From a virus (taxonomy: Duplodnaviria; Caudoviricetes), in IMG/VR virus record IMGVR_UViG_3300028833_000053: a stretch of DNA of 64,000 nucleotides; one strand, given 5' to 3'. The translations under genes and the position numbers were made by a program. Below, piece after piece: positions 1,917-49,585 of this stretch (position 1 is its first letter; each line of letters starts with the position of its first letter). The notes below the pieces were generated by a model, which saw only the letters and a program-made list of their open reading frames with translations, was not told the origin of the DNA and searched no databases.

Positions 1917-2426
1917 ATGGATTATGACGCAGAAACCCAGTTCTTGAAAGACCACAAGTCCTTGATACTTGATGGCATTGAATACATTGACAACAGTGTG
2001 TTCCGACCCAACTTCCTCACGGCAATGGAGGAAATGAAGTGGAAGTGCGTCATCGTTCCAGATAATGAATGGACACCCAGCAAGTGGTTTCCAACGGAGA
2101 CCGACAACTATCGCCGCGAGACAAGGGTGTTGAATTCATATATCGCCAAGAACCCTTCTTTGTTTGGCTACACGGACAAATATGGGTGGGCGTACCATGA
2201 ACTTGTGCATGTTGCCATCTACACTGGACGTATGCCCGAAAGGTACATGAACTTGGAATCTCCGTTTGAATATCCCTTGAACCGTGATGAAATCTATTGC
2301 TATGGCTATCAGATGAAGCACTTGATTGAATTCAAGAAAAACGGAAACTTGATGAGGTTCGCCCTTGGGAAGATTCCCGGACTCAAACCCAAACTTTGCG
2401 TGTTGGCAAATGCTTTATTCAAATAA
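1917..2426 (+). CDS. Zincin-like protein (HExxH)
   Basis: YHELVH plus downstream DEIYCY; ATG 1917 lies after the hairpin. Confidence 0.5.
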   Translation: MDYDAETQFLKDHKSLILDGIEYIDNSVFRPNFLTAMEEMKWKCVIVPDNEWTPSKWFPTETDNYRRETRVLNSYIAKNPSLFGYTDKYGWAYHELVHVAIYTGRMPERYMNLESPFEYPLNRDEIYCYGYQMKHLIEFKKNGNLMRFALGKIPGLKPKLCVLANALFK

Positions 2427-2442
2427 ACAGAAAGAGGAATAA

Positions 2443-3525
2443 ATGATTAGTTCATCAGAATTCGTATCACAAGGACATCCCGACAGGACGTGCGACAGCG
2501 TTGCGTCCTATATCTTGGATGAGTATTTGAGGCATGACCCCAAGACAAGGTTTGCACTTGAAATCCAGATGAAAGACCAGGTGTGCAACTTGGCTGGCGA
2601 GGTTACGTCCAAGTGGCTTCCCGGAAGACTTGAGATTGAGGATATGGTCAGGTGCGCAATCCGCAAGGTTGGCTATACTTCTGAGTATGCGTCAAATTGG
2701 CCCGATGGAGCAACGCTGAACGCAGACAAGGTTGTTGTGAACAACTTCATCGGACAGCAATCTCCCAACATTGCACAGGGCGTTGACCGAGAGGGCTGGG
2801 GCGACCAGGGTTGCTTCATGGGCATGGCCACCAACGAGAAGAAGTTTTTCTGTATGCCAATGGACAAGTACCTTGCCAACAGGATTGGCAAGCATCTTTA
2901 CACCGTTGCGAAATCAGGACTTATGTACATTGGTCTTGACATCAAGGTTCTTGTCTCCATCAAGAATGAAAACGAGGTTGAGCAGGTCATTGTGGCTGCT
3001 CCCATGCTTCCAGAGCATGAAACGGATATGGTGAAGTACATCAAAAACGTTGTCAACAACATTCTTTCGGAGTGTGGCTTGACATGTGATGAAATCATTG
3101 TCAATGGAACTGGCTCTTACGTCATCCATTCCACGGTTGGTGACGCTGGCGTTGTTGGAAGGAAACTGGCAGTTGACTTCTATGGTCTGAATTGCCCTAT
3201 CGGTGGCGGTACTACATGGGGCAAGGACGGTACCAAGGCGGACGTCACGTTGAATCTCGCCGCCAGGTACTACGCCCTGCAGGAGATTTTGAGGAATCCC
3301 GACAACAAGGCAATCTACACCAAGCTTGCCTGCTGCATTGGACAGAGCAAGTGCCTTGTTTCGTTCTTCAACGAAAACCACGAAGTTTACAAGGAGGAGC
3401 AGAAGGACATTCTCCCGTCCGAGATTACTCGCAAGTTTGGACTTGATGGCTCCGTTCCAGGAATGTATTGGTCTCTCTGCCAAAACGGATTGTTCCACTA
3501 CGTTGACGAACTTGCTTTGAAGTGA
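2443..3525 (+). CDS. metK: S-adenosylmethionine synthetase
   Basis: SEFVSQGHPDR, GWGDQG, GDAGVVGRKLAVDFYG and GGGTTWGKD motifs. Confidence 0.93.
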   Translation: MISSSEFVSQGHPDRTCDSVASYILDEYLRHDPKTRFALEIQMKDQVCNLAGEVTSKWLPGRLEIEDMVRCAIRKVGYTSEYASNWPDGATLNADKVVVNNFIGQQSPNIAQGVDREGWGDQGCFMGMATNEKKFFCMPMDKYLANRIGKHLYTVAKSGLMYIGLDIKVLVSIKNENEVEQVIVAAPMLPEHETDMVKYIKNVVNNILSECGLTCDEIIVNGTGSYVIHSTVGDAGVVGRKLAVDFYGLNCPIGGGTTWGKDGTKADVTLNLAARYYALQEILRNPDNKAIYTKLACCIGQSKCLVSFFNENHEVYKEEQKDILPSEITRKFGLDGSVPGMYWSLCQNGLFHYVDELALK

Positions 3526-46100: not shown

Positions 46101-46598
46101 GCGGCGGAAGAAGAAGAGAAGCGCAAAGCCGAAGAGGAAAAGAGGCTGCAAGAGGAGGCGAAACGCCAAGAGGAATTGAAAATTGCCCAGGCGAAGATTG
46201 CCGCCATGGAAGCCATCAAGAAGCAGGAGCAGAACTACGAGAACATCTTGGAGAAGATGGTGCAAGACCCATCAACGGTGACTGATGAGGAATTGAAGTC
46301 ACTTGGTGAAGACGTGAAGAACTTGAAGCAGGAAGCAGAAAACAGGATTGCACAACTGCCAAGAGAGGAAAGGGAAATGAAGCTGGCGTTGATTCGCGGC
46401 GACAAGCTTTCTGAAAAGACCTTCGCCGAGTTGAAGGAAACCGCAGTGGGGTTGAGTGGAAGTCTACAAGCCTACATCTAGGAAGTGAACCAAATTCCAG
46501 TTGGCTCTATAATGGCAATATAGGAAACGCCAGGAACGCCAACAGAAAGCAAGATATAGTTGCAAGACTCCGACAATGTGGATATGGGCGACGAATAA
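40155..46598 (+). CDS. Giant tape-measure/baseplate-hub-like protein (2147 aa) with a KPxxE repeat tract
   Basis: One frame interrupted only by 12 TAGs (40206, 41097, 41544, 41550, 42816, 44124, 44235, 45033, 45267, 46479, 46521, 46557), ends TAA; coiled-coil-like and hydrophobic segments, glycine zipper. Confidence 0.8.
41373..42152 (+). repeat. About 52 tandem KPxx(E/Q) pentapeptides (15-nt period)
   Basis: Register is kept across the two TAG codons. Confidence 0.9.
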
Positions 46599-46629
46599 AA
46601 AGACTTGGTTGGATAAGCCAAGTCTTTTT
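46597..46629. terminator. Bidirectional-type terminator hairpin
   Basis: AAAAAGACTTGG...CCAAGTCTTTTT; TATAAT follows at 46632. Confidence 0.75.
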
Positions 46630-46654
46630 AGTATAATTGAATGTGACGATTTAA

Positions 46655-46685
46655 TGCCCTATAGTGTAACAGCAGCACAGGGCAA
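46655..46685 (+). pseudogene. tRNA remnant: acceptor stem and D-arm only
   Basis: TGCCCT...AGGGCA stem enclosing GTGT-AACAGCA-GCAC. Confidence 0.5.
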
Positions 46686-46691
46686 ATTGAA

Positions 46692-46781
46692 TGAGCAGTG
46701 GTGTACGGCTTGCACAGACGGTCTCTAAAACCGTGGCTTCTGAAGCGAACGGACTGGGTTCGACTCCCAGCTGCTCAACCA
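46692..46781 (+). tRNA. Amber suppressor tRNA (anticodon CUA), long variable region
   Basis: Acceptor TGAGCAG/CTGCTCA + A + CCA; D-stem GTGT/GCAC; anticodon arm ACGGT-CTCTAAA-ACCGT (CTA at 46725-46727); T-arm CTGGG-TTCGACT-CCCAG. Confidence 0.92.
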
Positions 46782-46795
46782 ATTTGGAGACTGAC

Positions 46796-47083
46796 ATGGA
46801 AAAGAAAATTGACTTTGAGTTATTGACTGTAATTGACGAATCCATTGGTGATTCGGCAAGTTATGTTGATGCACTGGACAAGGTTATCAAGTGGGAGAAG
46901 GAGAATCGTGGATTGAAGGGATTCCATGTTTCCGCGCCTCTTGACGTGATGTGCGGAACAAGGAAAGTGGAAGACCCCGAAAAGGAAGCCGAGGAAATGG
47001 CGAGGGGTGTTCTGTTGATGCATCGCGCAGGGGCGTTGGGGAAATGGAAGGAAATCTCAGGTGACGAATTGGAGAGGATGTAA
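46796..47083 (+). CDS. Hypothetical protein
   Basis: SD GGAG after the tRNA; likely start 46796. Confidence 0.7.
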   Translation: MEKKIDFELLTVIDESIGDSASYVDALDKVIKWEKENRGLKGFHVSAPLDVMCGTRKVEDPEKEAEEMARGVLLMHRAGALGKWKEISGDELERM

Positions 47084-47085
47084 AA

Positions 47086-47334
47086 ATGTTTAATTTGTTC
47101 TATTGGGGTTTGTTTGGAAGTCATTTGGAAGAGGAATGGGAGCGCGAACATCCTGAGGAATCCGCGGAGCAGAAATACATTGAACAGCGTTGGGAACTTC
47201 AGGCGCAGTTGAGGAAATACCCAAATGCCAGAACCACAATCCGGATGCTTGACAAAGAGAACTACCGCACGTATGTTAGGCGAATGCTGGAGATTGGCGG
47301 TTCAAGGTCGATAAAGCAGTTTGAGGATATTTGA
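47086..47334 (+). CDS. Hypothetical protein
   Basis: Operon packing. Confidence 0.65.
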   Translation: MFNLFYWGLFGSHLEEEWEREHPEESAEQKYIEQRWELQAQLRKYPNARTTIRMLDKENYRTYVRRMLEIGGSRSIKQFEDI

Positions 47335-47337
47335 GAT

Positions 47338-47406
47338 ATGAGACGTGTGTTTGTAATAAGAAAGGATTTGCATCTGAAGCCCGGCAAGATGGGCGCGATG
47401 GATTGA
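47338..47406 (+). pseudogene. Orphaned 5' end of pth2 (MRRVFVIRKDLHLKPGKMGAMD*)
   Basis: Closely matches the N-terminus of the 48665 gene. Confidence 0.8.
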
Positions 47407-47427
47407 TTTTGTAGTAAAAACTACACA

Positions 47428-47487
47428 GGACAGATTGACTCTAATCAATTTTGGCTAGGTTTGCATAACGCCTAGCCATTACTGTTT
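47428..47487 (+). ncRNA. Putative three-way-junction regulatory RNA (C4/CI-like)
   Basis: P1 GGACAG/CTGTTT, P2 ATTGA/TCAAT, P3 TGGCTAGG/CCTAGCCA; loops complementary to downstream sites. Confidence 0.5.
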
Positions 47488-47554
47488 TAGACTAAAATGG
47501 TAAATACTTATAAACTTGTTAGAGCAAGGTTATAAAAATAAAGGTAATTAAGTT

Positions 47555-48655
47555 ATGCATCGTTATACTCAAGAAGAATTATAGTCTATATTTTAGGACT
47601 AGAAATTGGGTGAGGAAATAATTCCTCATATTAAAAACAATAAGATAGATATTGTTTTGTGGAATCAACGATATAAGCAACAATGGAAATAGATTTAGAG
47701 ACAGATGAAGAAGGGTTTATTGTGTCCGGTTTGTGGCACAATACTATTTAAGTTTTATGAGAAACATTTAGCACAGCATAATCTTACTGTAAAATAGTTA
47801 TATGATTAGGTATATGGTATAACTGAATCACCCAAATGCCCTGTGTGTGGAGAAGCAACAGAGTTTGTTAAGAACAAATGGTTTTATCGTAAATTTTGTT
47901 GTAATGCTCATTAGTGCAGAATTATAAATGAGACTGACGGATTGAGGAACGGATGGACTATTGAAGATATTAGAAATCATAATTCCATGATAATAGAACG
48001 TGGAAGAAAAGTATGCGATATAGTCAATAAAAAATATGGAAGTCAGTTTTCAATAAAATTAACTGATGAATAGCGTCTTAATAGAGGGTTAATAAATGAT
48101 GATGACTATTAGGAGTGGCAGACATAGTAGAAGTTAAAAAAATCAGAAGCCGGAAAACTTGGAGGGAAAAAATATTCTTCGTTATATGGATATAAATTAT
48201 TGAAGACATGGGGTTACAAAACGAAAATATTTTTGACTGAAAATAAATGGTTCATGCTTGAATCTTAGTAGGAATTGTTTCATTTATTGAAACGTGTATT
48301 TATCGACGGAGATAAGATTGAAACTATGAGTAATGCAATATTTTTAGAGAATACGACTAATTTATTTTCTGGAACAAGTGCTTTTACGGATTTGGTTATA
48401 GATAATAATGGAATAAAAACAAATTATGAAGTTCATTGTATAGATGATGAAGACACTATAAAAAGAAAACGATATTGTTCTGAATTAAATGGATATGAAT
48501 TTGTATTGGAAGATATTACTTTATACACATATCCGAATGGAAAATACATTGACCAATTAAGATAGTTTATAAATGTAGATGAAATTTATGAAAAGTTGAA
48601 ATATGAAAATAAATGTGGTAATGTATTTGTATTGAACTTATATGATTATGTATAA
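47555..48655 (+). CDS. Zinc-finger plus PD-(D/E)xK-like putative endonuclease (366 aa, 15 TAG codons)
   Basis: Two CPVCG motifs, KFCC; C-terminal ES..E...FTDLVI...YEVH; GGTAAATA at 47499-47506; ends TAA. Confidence 0.7.
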
Positions 48656-48664
48656 TTATTCAAT

Positions 48665-49243
48665 ATGAGAAGGGTTATCATAATACGTAAAGATTTACAC
48701 CTCAAAGCTGGTAAATTAGCTGCTATGTGTATGCACTGTGCAGAGGCATATTGGACTAACTTGATGAAGTCATCCGTTGTCATTGACAACGAGTTCATGA
48801 CTTTGCCCGCATGGGAGAACTATGGAAATGGAAAAGTGGGACCGGCCCTCTACAAGCACCCAGGACTTTACAAGTTGTCTGAAGAGGCTTACAACCGTGG
48901 GGAGAAGTCCTTCACCACAACGAGGGAAAACGCCCGTAAGTCCGTGACGGTCACGATGGAGATTCCAAAGGACATTTGGGAAGGGTATGTAAACGACATC
49001 TTCACAAAGACAATTTGCGAAGCACGCAACTTGAACAACTTGAAAACGAAGATTGAGCCGGTTGTGCAGGAACTTGGATTGGTTGAGGGGATTGATTGGG
49101 GCTACATCAACGATTGCTGCAAGACGGACTTGACGCCCGAGAACGAGGATGGCACTTGCACGATTGGTGCGTGGTTCAAGCCATTGCCTGACGAAGACGC
49201 ATTCAAGATTAGCAAGAAGTTCAAGCTTTACAGGGATGATTGA
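48665..49243 (+). CDS. pth2: Peptidyl-tRNA hydrolase type 2
   Basis: IIIRKDL..AGKLAAMCMH, FTKTIC, IND..KTD, TCT.G..KP. Confidence 0.75.
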   Translation: MRRVIIIRKDLHLKAGKLAAMCMHCAEAYWTNLMKSSVVIDNEFMTLPAWENYGNGKVGPALYKHPGLYKLSEEAYNRGEKSFTTTRENARKSVTVTMEIPKDIWEGYVNDIFTKTICEARNLNNLKTKIEPVVQELGLVEGIDWGYINDCCKTDLTPENEDGTCTIGAWFKPLPDEDAFKISKKFKLYRDD

Positions 49244-49264
49244 TTCCTGTATAATTGGACTATT

Positions 49265-49585
49265 ATGAAAAATATTCTTTTAGTTGCCGCCATTATGTTT
49301 CTTGGAATGGTCAAGGCGGAGACCAACATAAAGCCATCGGACACCAATGACCTTCATGTTATCATGGTGTCGAAATCCCAGTGGACAGACATCAAGAACA
49401 ACGTTGACACGAATGGGTTCTGCAGAATTCCAGACCAACATGCGGCCATCGTGATTACAAATGGTCTGCCTGATGTTGAACTGGTTGTGCCGATGCTGCG
49501 TCCAATTGGAAGGGGAGCGGATAGAAATCCCTACTACAACTATCGGAAACAGGAACCACTTCCATATGTGGGTCAATTATATTGA
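49265..49585 (+). CDS. Hypothetical protein with signal peptide
   Basis: MKNILLVAAIMFLGMVKA. Confidence 0.65.
   Translation: MKNILLVAAIMFLGMVKAETNIKPSDTNDLHVIMVSKSQWTDIKNNVDTNGFCRIPDQHAAIVITNGLPDVELVVPMLRPIGRGADRNPYYNYRKQEPLPYVGQLY

What the first reader, a model, noticed from the sequence alone, without database searches (positions are those of the whole stretch)
47338..48727. Recoding-dependent endonuclease element that invades pth2 and rebuilds its N-terminus
Seen: an orphan pth2 start (MRRVFVIRKDLHLKPGKMGAM), then an AT-rich cassette with a 366-aa zinc-finger/PD-(D/E)xK-like ORF holding 15 TAGs (including TAG-TAG pairs). A TATAAT and a re-coded AT-rich pth2 start (MRRVIIIRKDLHLKAGKLAAM) follow. 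Inference: intronless homing in which the replaced 5' sequence confers immunity to cutting, with a nuclease translatable only in recoding phages.
Basis: partly seen in the sequence, partly recalled or inferred. Interest (0 to 1): 0.7.

Follow-up and report, generated by a model that had tools for sequence, protein, structure and literature searches.

The report
Homing nuclease cassette rebuilding phage pth2
A selfish nuclease gene has inserted into the start of a giant phage's peptidyl-tRNA hydrolase gene. It carries a spare copy of that gene's first 25 codons so the gene still works, and a small RNA module that probably keeps the nuclease silent until late in infection.

Summary
Window 47401-48739 is an AT-rich cassette (GC 0.23-0.33, flanks about 0.48) inserted after codon 21 of pth2.

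- **Contents:** a 366-aa nuclease ORF with 15 in-frame TAGs, a TATAAT box, and a re-coded pth2 start. The native 63-nt start is left as an orphan.
- **Empty alleles:** two related phage contigs carry uninterrupted pth2; one is syntenic on both sides.
- **Same architecture elsewhere:** at least three other metagenome contigs show it.
- **Mobility:** between two of those contigs the cassette, including the new 5' segment, is 90-96% identical while the flanks are 60-65% identical with very different GC. The unit has moved between phages.
- **Nuclease:** two invariant zinc fingers plus a TnsA-like PD-(D/E)xK fold, with no Pfam family. All close homologs need TAG=Gln.
- **Leader (new here):** a roughly 140-nt leader is shared by GIY-YIG, HNH and PD-(D/E)xK homing-nuclease cassettes of such phages. 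It holds a Y-shaped RNA whose two loops covary with the 5'-UTR hairpin loop and with the start codon, and a GTAAATA late-type promoter box.
- **Gene-end replacement:** sister cassettes carry replacement 3' gene ends.

Cleavage and immunity remain inferred. The scan had already noted the RNA and the promoter motif on this genome.

The parts
47338..47400 (+). Orphan native pth2 start: 21 codons, terminated by GAT TGA at 47401-47406.
   Evidence: It is 83% identical to the L002 empty allele, against 65% for the new copy. Its GC is 0.48, like the host flanks.
47401..48739 (+). The inserted cassette as a whole. Its 1339 nt replace 12 nt of the empty allele.
   Evidence: Pairwise alignment to L002, the GC trough, and the conserved cassette with diverged flanks in L005 versus L010.
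47425..47488 (+). Y-shaped three-way-junction RNA. Loop A is CTCTAA at 47439-47444. Loop B is TGCATAAC at 47462-47469.
   Evidence: 94% of cells are paired, and 20 of 32 pairs show compensatory changes across 21 loci. Folding z-score is -3.7. Both loops covary with their targets.
47500..47506 (+). GTAAATA late-promoter-like box between the Y RNA and the 5'-UTR hairpin.
   Evidence: The window has 11 copies against 3.2 expected; 9 of them, the cassette's included, lie 16-85 nt upstream of a gene start and point at it. GTAAAT is present in 20 of 20 leaders, ending 47-53 nt before the ATG.
47511..47533 (+). 5'-UTR hairpin. Its apical loop TTAGAG (47519-47524) is complementary to loop A.
   Evidence: 6 of 9 stem pairs show compensatory changes. 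Loop-loop complementarity of 6-9 nt holds in 20 of 20 leaders, across 12 loop variants.
47540..47559 (+). Translation start region: AAAGG box, ATG at 47555, and GTTATGCA (47552-47559) complementary to loop B.
   Evidence: Complementarity of 7-9 nt across the start codon holds in 18 of 20 leaders, with 16 loop variants.
47555..48655 (+). Nuclease gene, 366 aa, with 15 TAG=Gln codons. Two zinc fingers are followed by a TnsA-like PD-(D/E)xK domain.
48652..48657 (+). TATAAT box, 7 nt upstream of the rebuilt pth2 start.
   Evidence: It is read directly in the sequence. A TATAAT lies between the nuclease stop and the pth2 ATG in 5 of 6 cassettes. Promoter function is inferred.
48665..48739 (+). Cassette-borne replacement pth2 codons 1-25, AT-rich and re-coded.
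   Evidence: It is 65% identical to the L002 allele over the first 63 nt, with GC 0.35. The equivalent tract is 93% identical between L005 and L010, whose flanks are 60-65% identical.
48740..49243 (+). Native remainder of pth2. Together with 48665-48739 it forms the 192-aa open gene.
   Evidence: It is 81% identical to L002. Pfam PTH2 E 2.4e-10.
46692..46781 (+). Context, not part of the cassette: the phage tRNA with a CUA anticodon needed to read the nuclease's TAG codons.
   Evidence: ARAGORN. Rfam tRNA clan, 33.6 bits.

Best explanation
The region is a free-standing homing-endonuclease cassette that spreads among TAG-recoded jumbo phages by 'intronless homing' into the most conserved block of pth2.

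**Proposed route of spread (inferred).** The nuclease (two zinc fingers for DNA recognition plus a TnsA-like PD-(D/E)xK catalytic domain) would cut an unoccupied pth2 near codons 21-25 during co-infection. Repair would use the occupied genome as template. Left homology would end at native codon 21 and right homology would begin near codon 26. Everything between is copied: leader, nuclease gene, a -10-like box and a foreign copy of pth2 codons 1-25.

**Consequences.** pth2 stays intact, because the cassette supplies a new start and expression signal. The old 63-nt start is stranded as an orphan. Neither copy keeps the original sequence across the codon 21/22 junction, which would protect the occupied genome from its own nuclease.

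**Three stacked controls on expression.**
1. A Y-shaped RNA at the 5' end of the cassette has two loops. One pairs with the apical loop of the 5'-UTR hairpin and the other with the start codon. This would block translation on read-through transcripts, and perhaps in trans.
2. A GTAAATA late-type promoter sits between that RNA and the start region, so late transcripts lack the cis-repressor.
3. The 15 TAG codons need the phage's suppressor tRNA.

**Shown here:** anatomy, empty alleles, horizontal transfer of the unit, nuclease fold, RNA covariation.

**Inferred:** cleavage, its position, immunity, promoter use, and repression by the RNA.
For: - **Empty alleles and precise insertion:** uninterrupted, collinear alleles in L001 and L002. 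The cassette's 1339 nt replace 12 nt of the L002 allele.
- **Recurrence:** the same orphan / leader / nuclease / new-start architecture occurs in L004, L005 and L010. The junction is at codon 21 in window, L005 and L010, and at codon 17 in L004. L006 shows the orphan's tail at the start of its contig.
- **Transfer signature, L005 versus L010:** leader 96%, nuclease 90%, spacer plus new 63 nt 93% identical. The orphan is 60% and pth2 nt 76-200 are 65% identical. Flank GC is 0.25-0.44 against 0.57-0.65.
- **Native versus foreign copy:** the window's orphan is native-like and its new copy foreign-like.
- **Target specificity:** all six loci of close nuclease homologs that have downstream sequence are followed by pth2.
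- **Nuclease fold and motifs:** AF2 model pLDDT 83; TnsA top by Foldseek and VIA-align; E240, D279 and E292 are invariant. H294 is nearly so: one distant homolog, P0012, has Arg there. In the zinc fingers C57, C60, H71, C95 and C98 are invariant; H75 and C115 are nearly invariant; H119 is invariant among the seven close homologs only.
- **TAG reads as Gln:** TAG alternates with CAA/CAG at invariant Gln columns.
- **RNA module:**
- **Promoter box:**
- **Sister cassettes:** those with the same leader carry replacement 3' gene ends and leave native orphans (L039, L070, L085).
- **Precedents:** T4 homing-nuclease genes are silenced by an RNA structure that late-promoter transcripts lack (PMC2988022, section 12). 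Recoded stop codons were proposed to delay an intron nuclease in Agate phages (bioRxiv 10.1101/2021.08.26.457843).
Against: - There is no biochemical evidence for cleavage, and the target site is unknown.
- The canonical Lys of D...(D/E)xK is His, or Arg in one distant homolog.
- No sequence family is matched in Pfam, PHROGs or PDB.
- T4 free-standing nucleases often cut hundreds of bases from their insertion site (PMC2988022, section 7), so the cut need not lie at the junction.
- In AT-rich L005 the orphan and the new copy are 81% identical, so re-coding of the left half alone may not give protection.
- The window's nuclease is only 59% identical to its nearest sampled relative, so nothing shows a recent transfer of this particular copy.
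- Most supporting loci are short metagenome contigs. One of them, L009, could be an assembly chimera formed through the shared leader.
Confidence: 0.8

Rival explanations
1. The cassette is mobile, but the duplicated 5' end is only a repair of the gene it split. The nuclease cuts somewhere else, for example further into pth2 or in a neighbouring gene. Protection then comes from differences at that site, not from the rebuilt start.
For: T4 seg and mob enzymes cut far from their own genes (PMC2988022, section 7). The L005 orphan and new copy are 81% identical.
Against: The junction is at the same codon in three diverged hosts. The foreign tract extends four codons past the duplication and changes the residues there. 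Sister cassettes also carry diverged replacement ends directly beside their insertion points.
Confidence: 0.15
2. The nuclease has been domesticated. It no longer moves and serves the phage, for example by excluding related co-infecting phages or in DNA metabolism.
For: The window copy is only 59% identical to its nearest relative. The ORF is intact with all conserved residues.
Against: The L005/L010 pair shows recent transfer of the unit between very different genomes. The locus is polymorphic among relatives. Exclusion by cutting competitors is the same chemistry as homing, so this reading is not truly exclusive.
Confidence: 0.1
3. The region is a self-splicing intron or other spliced element. 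The orphan is exon 1, joined to codon 22 after RNA splicing.
For: Joining the orphan's 21 codons to codon 22 of the new copy would give an in-frame pth2.
Against: No group I or group II intron, or any other Rfam family, matches at E up to 1 on either strand of 46500-49500. A full second start with its own TATAAT makes splicing unnecessary. L007 and L008 lack the orphan yet keep pth2.
Confidence: 0.02
4. The region is a TnsA-type cut-and-paste transposon or an assembly artefact.
For: TnsA is the closest fold.
Against: There are no terminal inverted repeats, no target-site duplication and no transposase partner. The same architecture appears in at least four independent assemblies.
Confidence: 0.02

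Closest known systems
Mobile endonuclease ORFs of fungal mitochondria that carry a foreign gene end (Allomyces macrogynus atp6; Glomus sp. atp6, atp9, cox2, nad3; PMC3630166)
   Same: A free-standing endonuclease gene sits inside a protein-coding gene near one terminus. It brings a diverged, functional copy of that terminus. The native terminus is left as an unexpressed orphan, and transfer between lineages is inferred.
   Different: Those are mitochondrial, replace the 3' (C-terminal) end, and use LAGLIDADG or GIY-YIG enzymes. Here the host is a phage and the 5' end is replaced, so the cassette must also supply a start codon and an expression signal. The enzyme is a zinc-finger PD-(D/E)xK protein and the gene is stop-codon recoded. 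Sister cassettes in these phages do replace 3' ends.
T4 seg/mob free-standing homing endonucleases ('intronless homing'; PMC2988022)
   Same: Phage-borne nuclease genes without an intron or intein, polymorphic among relatives. They are silenced on early transcripts by an RNA structure that late-promoter transcripts lack.
   Different: The T4 genes mostly lie between genes, or split a gene into two polypeptides (mobE in Aeh1 nrdA, mobA in gene 60). None is described there as rebuilding a gene end. T4 uses a simple hairpin over the ribosome-binding site, not a separate two-loop RNA.
TnsA of Tn7 (PDB 1t0f, 1f1z)
   Same: It is the best structural match to residues 158-366. The acidic residues sit at equivalent places: a helix Glu, a strand-start Asp and an ExH strand.
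   Different: Sequence identity is 12-14%, there is no Pfam TnsA match, and His replaces the Lys. There is no TnsB-like partner and there are no transposon ends. This is likeness of fold, not membership.
PD-(D/E)xK and Vsr-like homing endonucleases (I-Ssp6803I, from my own knowledge; I-Bth0305I, PDB 3r3p)
   Same: They are homing enzymes built on the restriction-endonuclease fold. I-Bth0305I is from a phage and appears in the fold list (Z 5.2).
   Different: There is no detectable sequence relation. The DNA-binding modules differ, and here they are two zinc fingers.
c4 antisense RNA of phages P1 and P7 (PMC12197685, section 7)
   Same: A small structured RNA whose loop sequences are complementary to sites around the ribosome-binding site of a downstream message and block its translation.
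   Different: Here the RNA is attached to homing-nuclease cassettes of several enzyme classes. One of its targets is the start codon itself, and a late promoter lies between the RNA and its target. Trans action has not been shown.
Recoded intron endonuclease of Agate phages (bioRxiv 10.1101/2021.08.26.457843)
   Same: In-frame reassigned stop codons were proposed to hold back homing-nuclease synthesis until the code switch late in infection.
   Different: That case uses TGA=Trp, lies in a group I intron, and is a different enzyme.

Membership tests
Free-standing homing endonuclease gene (intronless homing) | Presence/absence polymorphism at one precise site among related genomes | tested here: met
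   L001 and L002 are empty. Window, L005 and L010 are occupied at codon 21 and L004 at codon 17.
Free-standing homing endonuclease gene (intronless homing) | The element is more conserved than its flanks between hosts (horizontal spread) | tested here: met
   Between L005 and L010 the cassette is 90-96% identical and the flanks 60-65%.
Free-standing homing endonuclease gene (intronless homing) | Not embedded in an intron or intein | tested here: met
   No Rfam family matches at E up to 1. The nuclease ORF has its own start, is not in frame with pth2 and follows a stop codon.
Free-standing homing endonuclease gene (intronless homing) | The enzyme cleaves the empty allele and spares the occupied one | not testable with these tools
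   This needs a cleavage assay.
PD-(D/E)xK nuclease superfamily (TnsA-like branch) | Restriction-endonuclease core fold | tested here: met
   Foldseek TnsA probability 0.98, E 0.02. VIA-align Z 8.0, rmsd 3.7 over 153 residues, followed by Vsr, Hjc, I-Bth0305I and others.
PD-(D/E)xK nuclease superfamily (TnsA-like branch) | Catalytic D...(D/E)xK motif on strands 2 and 3 plus a helix Glu | tested here: inconclusive
   E240, D279 and E292 are invariant, but the Lys position is His, or Arg in one distant homolog. Placement on the secondary structure fits. No residue-level superposition was available.
PD-(D/E)xK nuclease superfamily (TnsA-like branch) | Match to the Pfam Tn7_TnsA-like_N model or another nuclease model | tested here: not met
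   No nuclease family matched the protein or its 10 relatives at E up to 1. The PDB profile search also found none.
Gene-end-replacing mobile endonuclease ORFs (Allomyces atp6 type) | The endonuclease ORF carries a diverged functional copy of the host gene's terminus and leaves the native terminus as an orphan | tested here: met
   It is the mirror image of the fungal cases, replacing the 5' end. The 3' version occurs in L039, L070 and L085.
Gene-end-replacing mobile endonuclease ORFs (Allomyces atp6 type) | Mitochondrial LAGLIDADG or GIY-YIG element | tested here: not met
   The host is a phage and the enzyme is a zinc-finger PD-(D/E)xK protein. It is therefore an analogue, not a member.
Group I intron with homing endonuclease | Ribozyme core flanking the ORF; exons contiguous after removal, without duplication | tested here: not met
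   No intron model matched. A 63-nt duplicated gene start is present.
c4-type two-loop antisense RNA | A structured RNA with two loops, each complementary to a site in the target's translation start region | tested here: met
   Loop A pairs with the hairpin loop over 6-9 nt in 20 of 20 leaders. Loop B pairs with the start codon over 7-9 nt in 18 of 20. Non-cognate pairings average 4.2 and 5.0 nt.
c4-type two-loop antisense RNA | The RNA accumulates and represses translation | not testable with these tools
   This needs RNA mapping and reporter assays.

The most novel reading that the evidence does not exclude
TAG-recoded jumbo phages of gut and rumen carry a whole population of homing-nuclease cassettes built on one portable chassis. 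The chassis has two parts.

1. A self-matched two-loop antisense RNA plus a late promoter. Together they make any nuclease class (GIY-YIG, HNH, PD-(D/E)xK) safe to carry.
2. A spare gene end, 5' or 3', that lets the cassette invade the inside of essential coding sequences without needing an intron or an intein.

The pth2 element would be the first described 5'-end-replacing member. The leader would be a new RNA class whose loops are re-tuned each time the nuclease ORF is swapped.
Probability: 0.5. Interest if true: 0.85.

Novelty: new variant of a known kind. Interest (0 to 1): 0.7.

Why it matters
**A third way into coding DNA.** Homing endonucleases are thought to need an intron or an intein to live inside coding sequence. 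Otherwise they must stay between genes or split their host gene. This cassette shows another solution in phages: it brings a spare gene end. Until now this was described only for the 3' ends of fungal mitochondrial genes. Here it is done at a 5' end, which also requires importing a start codon and a promoter.

**Layered control of a dangerous enzyme.** Expression appears to be held back by an antisense RNA, a late promoter and the genetic code itself.

**A shared leader.** The same leader precedes unrelated nuclease classes, which points to a modular, exchangeable regulatory unit.

**Practical consequences.**
- It explains fragmented and duplicated gene calls in recoded phage genomes.
- It marks a likely source of assembly chimeras.
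- It offers an uncharacterised zinc-finger nuclease family with a defined candidate target.

Tried and rejected
**Sequence-family searches for the nuclease.** Pfam and PHROGs gave only sub-threshold matches, mostly to small zinc-ribbon models; the PDB search gave none. Profile searches against PDB and Pfam gave no nuclease family.

**Collection scans.**
- Protein-pattern scans of IMG/VR and of JGI metagenome contigs found no relatives of the nuclease. This probably reflects TAG stops breaking the tblastn confirmation.
- A DNA pattern taken from the leader succeeded instead.
- tblastn of the nuclease and blastn of the leader against 50,697 GenBank phage records found nothing.

- No whole genome is held for this window.

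**Structural and signal checks.**
- Rfam found nothing in 46500-49500 except the tRNA, so the intron reading was dropped.
- There are no terminal inverted repeats or target-site duplications, so the transposon reading was dropped.
- The sigma-70 and terminator scan was no better than shuffles and did not list the TATAAT at 48652. Its promoter role rests only on its conservation in 5 of 6 cassettes.

**Method notes.**
- DNA-level alignment did not recover the L098 3' duplication, which is visible only at the protein level.
Full report
**1. What is in the window**

- An ATG at 47338 opens 21 codons of a pth2-type gene. After codon 21 the frame reads GAT TGA.
- GC then drops from about 0.48 to 0.23-0.33 until about 48720. 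This is the only such trough in the 64-kb window.
- Inside the trough, 47555-48655 is open for 366 codons only if TAG is sense. It has 15 TAGs, two of them as TAG-TAG pairs, and no TAA or TGA. Shuffles of the same bases give a mean of 27 such stops per frame, so the chance of none is about 5e-13.
- The stop codon overlaps a TATAAT at 48652-48657.
- At 48665 a complete TAG-free 192-aa gene starts. It matches Pfam PTH2 at E 2.4e-10.
- The host is a phage that reads TAG as sense. Its neighbouring 2147-aa and 3591-aa ORFs need 12 and 11 TAGs, and a tRNA with a CUA anticodon lies at 46692-46781.
- The cassette uses TAG about ten times more densely than those genes: 4.1% of codons against 0.3-0.6%.

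**2. Empty sites and the exact insertion**

A scan of IMG/VR with the pth2 protein returned three loci. L001 and L002 (85-86% identical protein) carry an uninterrupted gene.

L002 comes from a 418-kb contig and is collinear with the window on both sides:
- window 47083-47400 aligns to L002 3746-4063;
- window 48740-49276 aligns to L002 4076-4612.

So 1339 nt (47401-48739) stand in place of 12 nt of the empty allele. The duplication is 63 nt, but the foreign tract runs four codons further. Codons 22-25 read LAHL in the empty alleles and CMHC in the window. The orphan is 83% identical to L002, like the flanks at 76-81%. The new copy is 65% identical, with GC 0.35.

**3. The same element elsewhere, and proof that it moves**

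The nuclease has seven relatives in the 5.8-billion-protein collection. Six span its whole length at 51-58% identity (about 365-370 aa) and the seventh, P0009, covers under half of it. All are on short metagenome contigs, and every one translates only with TAG=Q.
- TAG alternates with CAA/CAG at invariant Gln columns, so Gln is the reading.
- In every locus with downstream sequence the next gene is pth2 (L004, L005, L006, L007, L008, L010).
- L005 and L010 have a 21-codon orphan ending at the same ATG as the window.
- L004 has a 17-codon orphan.
- L006 begins inside the orphan.
- L007 and L008 have lost the orphan.

The decisive comparison is L005 against L010:

| Segment | Identity |
|---|---|
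| Leader | 96% |
| Nuclease | 90% |
| Spacer plus new 63 nt | 93% |
| Orphan | 60% |
| pth2 nt 76-200 | 65% |

Flank GC is 0.25-0.44 in L005 and 0.57-0.65 in L010. The unit bounded by the orphan junction on the left and by about codon 25 on the right has therefore crossed between very different phage genomes. The rebuilt gene start travels with it.

More distant relatives of the nuclease sit at other loci. One lies beside a radical-SAM gene (L109, with the same leader). One lies after an RNA-polymerase subunit gene and needs no TAG (L110).

**4. The protein**

An AF2 model built on 11 sequences has mean pLDDT 83.
- **N-terminal half:** it holds two zinc-finger motifs. Finger 1 uses C57, C60, H71 and H75. 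Finger 2 uses C95, C98, C115 and H119. Five of these residues are invariant across all 11 sequences, H75 and C115 are nearly so, and H119 is invariant among the seven close homologs. The same finger module recurs in metagenome proteins, two of which carry weak matches to other nuclease domains in their C-terminal part (P0016, P0022).
- **C-terminal half:** residues 158-366 match TnsA best. Foldseek gives probability 0.98 and E 0.02. VIA-align gives Z 8.0, rmsd 3.7 over 153 residues. A long list of PD-(D/E)xK enzymes follows: Vsr, Hjc, McrC, Bax1 and I-Bth0305I.
- **Candidate catalytic residues:** E240 on the first helix, D279 at the start of a strand, and E292-x-H294 on the next strand sit where that superfamily keeps them. 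His, or Arg in one relative, replaces the usual Lys.
- **Sequence families:** none is matched.

So the fold supports a nuclease, but membership of any named family is not established and activity is untested.

**5. The leader: a shared regulatory chassis**

The 140 nt upstream of the nuclease ATG are conserved among the pth2 cassettes and fold into a three-way junction plus a second hairpin.

A covariance model (R1) found the same leader at 75-142 bits in about 20 further loci, which I had pulled from IMG/VR and metagenome contigs with a short DNA pattern. There it precedes quite different TAG-containing nuclease genes, recognised by their signature motifs:
- GIY-YIG types: L063, L092, L098, L046, L039, L085, L051, L090;
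- HNH types: L022, L070;
- another zinc-finger type: L103;
- others: L043, L077.

On 21 sequences 94% of cells pair, against 74% in shuffles and 30-44% when the partner is slid. 20 of 32 pairs show compensatory changes, and all 11 pairs of the long arm covary.

- Loop A is complementary over 6-9 nt to the apical loop of the downstream hairpin in 20 of 20 leaders, with 12 sequence variants.
- Loop B is complementary over 7-9 nt to the stretch across the start codon in 18 of 20, with 16 variants.
- Non-cognate combinations average 4.2 and 5.0 nt.

Between the Y RNA and the hairpin every leader has GTAAAT, ending 47-53 nt before the ATG. GTAAATA is enriched in the window (11 copies against 3.2 expected). 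Nine of the 11 copies, the cassette's included, lie 16-85 nt upstream of a gene start and point at it. Other notes of this scan call it a late-promoter candidate.

The arrangement parallels T4. There, an RNA structure blocks translation of I-TevI, segB and mobE on early transcripts, and a late promoter placed inside the structure frees the start site (PMC2988022, section 12). In its two-loop design it also parallels the c4 RNA of P1 and P7 (PMC12197685). Rfam has no model for this leader, and GenBank phage records hold no copy.

**6. Gene-end replacement is general in this cassette population**

Sister cassettes inserted near the 3' end of a gene show the mirror image. An AT-rich copy of the last codons lies directly upstream of the leader. 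The GC-richer native copy is stranded just after the nuclease stop. Examples:
- L039: 74 nt;
- L070: 80 nt, GC 0.29 against 0.40;
- L085: 41 nt;
- L098: visible at the protein level only.

This is the arrangement described for mobile endonuclease ORFs in fungal mitochondria (Allomyces atp6; Glomus atp6, atp9, cox2, nad3; PMC3630166). The pth2 element is its 5' counterpart. It additionally needs a start codon and an expression signal, and a TATAAT is kept in 5 of 6 cassettes.

**7. Mechanism, with shown and inferred steps marked**

*Shown by comparison:* a discrete unit is present or absent at one codon of pth2. It is transferred between phages. It carries the gene's new start and encodes a protein with a nuclease fold. 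It is preceded by an RNA whose loops covary with its own start region.

*Inferred:*
- The nuclease cuts empty pth2 near codons 21-25.
- Repair copies the cassette.
- The occupied genome is protected because neither copy keeps the original sequence across the junction.
- GTAAATA is used late.
- The Y RNA represses translation.
- The TAG codons add a third delay. This idea has already been published for an intron nuclease of Agate phages (bioRxiv 10.1101/2021.08.26.457843).

The target lies in the N-terminal block that Pfam's PTH2 profile aligns (residues 3-79). From my own knowledge of the family this is its most conserved motif, which is the kind of site homing enzymes favour.

**8. Rivals**

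- **Intron:** excluded as far as Rfam and the anatomy allow.
- **Transposon:** the ends and the partner protein are missing.
- **Assembly artefact:** ruled out by four or more independent assemblies.
- **Live alternative:** the cut lies elsewhere, and the rebuilt start only repairs the gene. A cleavage map would settle this.

**9. Verdict**

This is a real, well-delimited mobile element. As a kind it is a new variant of known things: intronless homing combined with gene-end replacement. Three features are undescribed as far as I could find:
- 5'-end replacement in a phage;
- a zinc-finger, TnsA-like enzyme family that occurs almost only in TAG-recoded form;
- a portable two-loop antisense leader shared by several nuclease classes.

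Noticed in passing
window 47420-47560; also L004, L005, L007-L010, L022, L039, L043, L046, L051, L057, L063, L070, L077, L085, L090, L092, L098, L103, L109: The cassette's roughly 140-nt leader is shared by homing-nuclease genes of several classes (GIY-YIG, HNH, zinc-finger PD-(D/E)xK). It comprises a Y-shaped RNA, a GTAAATA box, a hairpin and an AAAGG box. The two loops of the Y RNA covary with the hairpin loop and with the start codon. There is no Rfam family and no copy in GenBank phage records.
   Followed up: yes
L039 1007-1080 and 2192-2265; L070 2482-2561 and 3879-3958; L085 2127-2167 and 3078-3118; L098 (protein level): Sister cassettes inserted near 3' ends of genes carry an AT-rich replacement of the last codons upstream of the leader. 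The native 3' end is left as an orphan after the nuclease gene. This mirrors the pth2 case.
   Followed up: partly
L063 about 560-1816; L009 about 200-440; L002 about 1990-3190; compare window 46692-46800: The spot just downstream of the CUA-anticodon tRNA is a hot spot for nuclease cassettes in relatives. L063 has a GIY-YIG gene with the leader. L009 has the pth2-type nuclease. L002 has a 325-aa zinc-finger ORF behind a weak leader-like match. In the window this spot is empty. L009 may instead be an assembly chimera formed through the shared leader.
   Followed up: partly
window 46692-46781: The suppressor tRNA (anticodon CUA) is 90 nt long with a long extra arm and a 3-bp D stem. ARAGORN labels it Pyl, and Rfam scores it best, below threshold, as tRNA-Sec. 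The codon alignment nevertheless says that TAG reads as Gln.
   Followed up: partly
window 1015, 3532, 15376, 21333, 26195, 35004, 38250(-), 39416, 40123, 47500, 50312: GTAAATA, often as ATGGTAAATA, is three times over-represented. Nine of the 11 copies, the cassette's included, lie 16-85 nt upstream of a gene start and point at it. The cassette carries the same box, so it appears to plug into the phage's own late-type transcription.
   Followed up: partly
window 48650-48667 and 49248-49267: TGTATAAT lies 7-9 nt upstream of the ATG both at the rebuilt pth2 and at the next gene (49265). This suggests very short or absent mRNA leaders for these TAG-free genes.
   Followed up: no
L006 1333-1739: In this occupied locus the pth2 copy has an in-frame TGA at codon 3 and a frameshift further on. 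The cause is either gene decay or errors in a low-coverage assembly.
   Followed up: no
L011 8-1069 (protein P0009): A 353-aa TAG-containing ORF matches the nuclease over only 46% of its length and carries a weak DUF4097 hit. It may be a recombinant or a chimeric contig.
   Followed up: no
L005 554-566, L010 110-123, L070 about 2553-2562: In several cassettes the left junction itself forms a second GTAAATA box. The last G of the host codon is followed by TAAATA, 8-9 nt upstream of the Y RNA. The RNA might therefore also be made as a separate small transcript. The window's copy has a degenerate version (GTAAAAA at 47413).
   Followed up: partly
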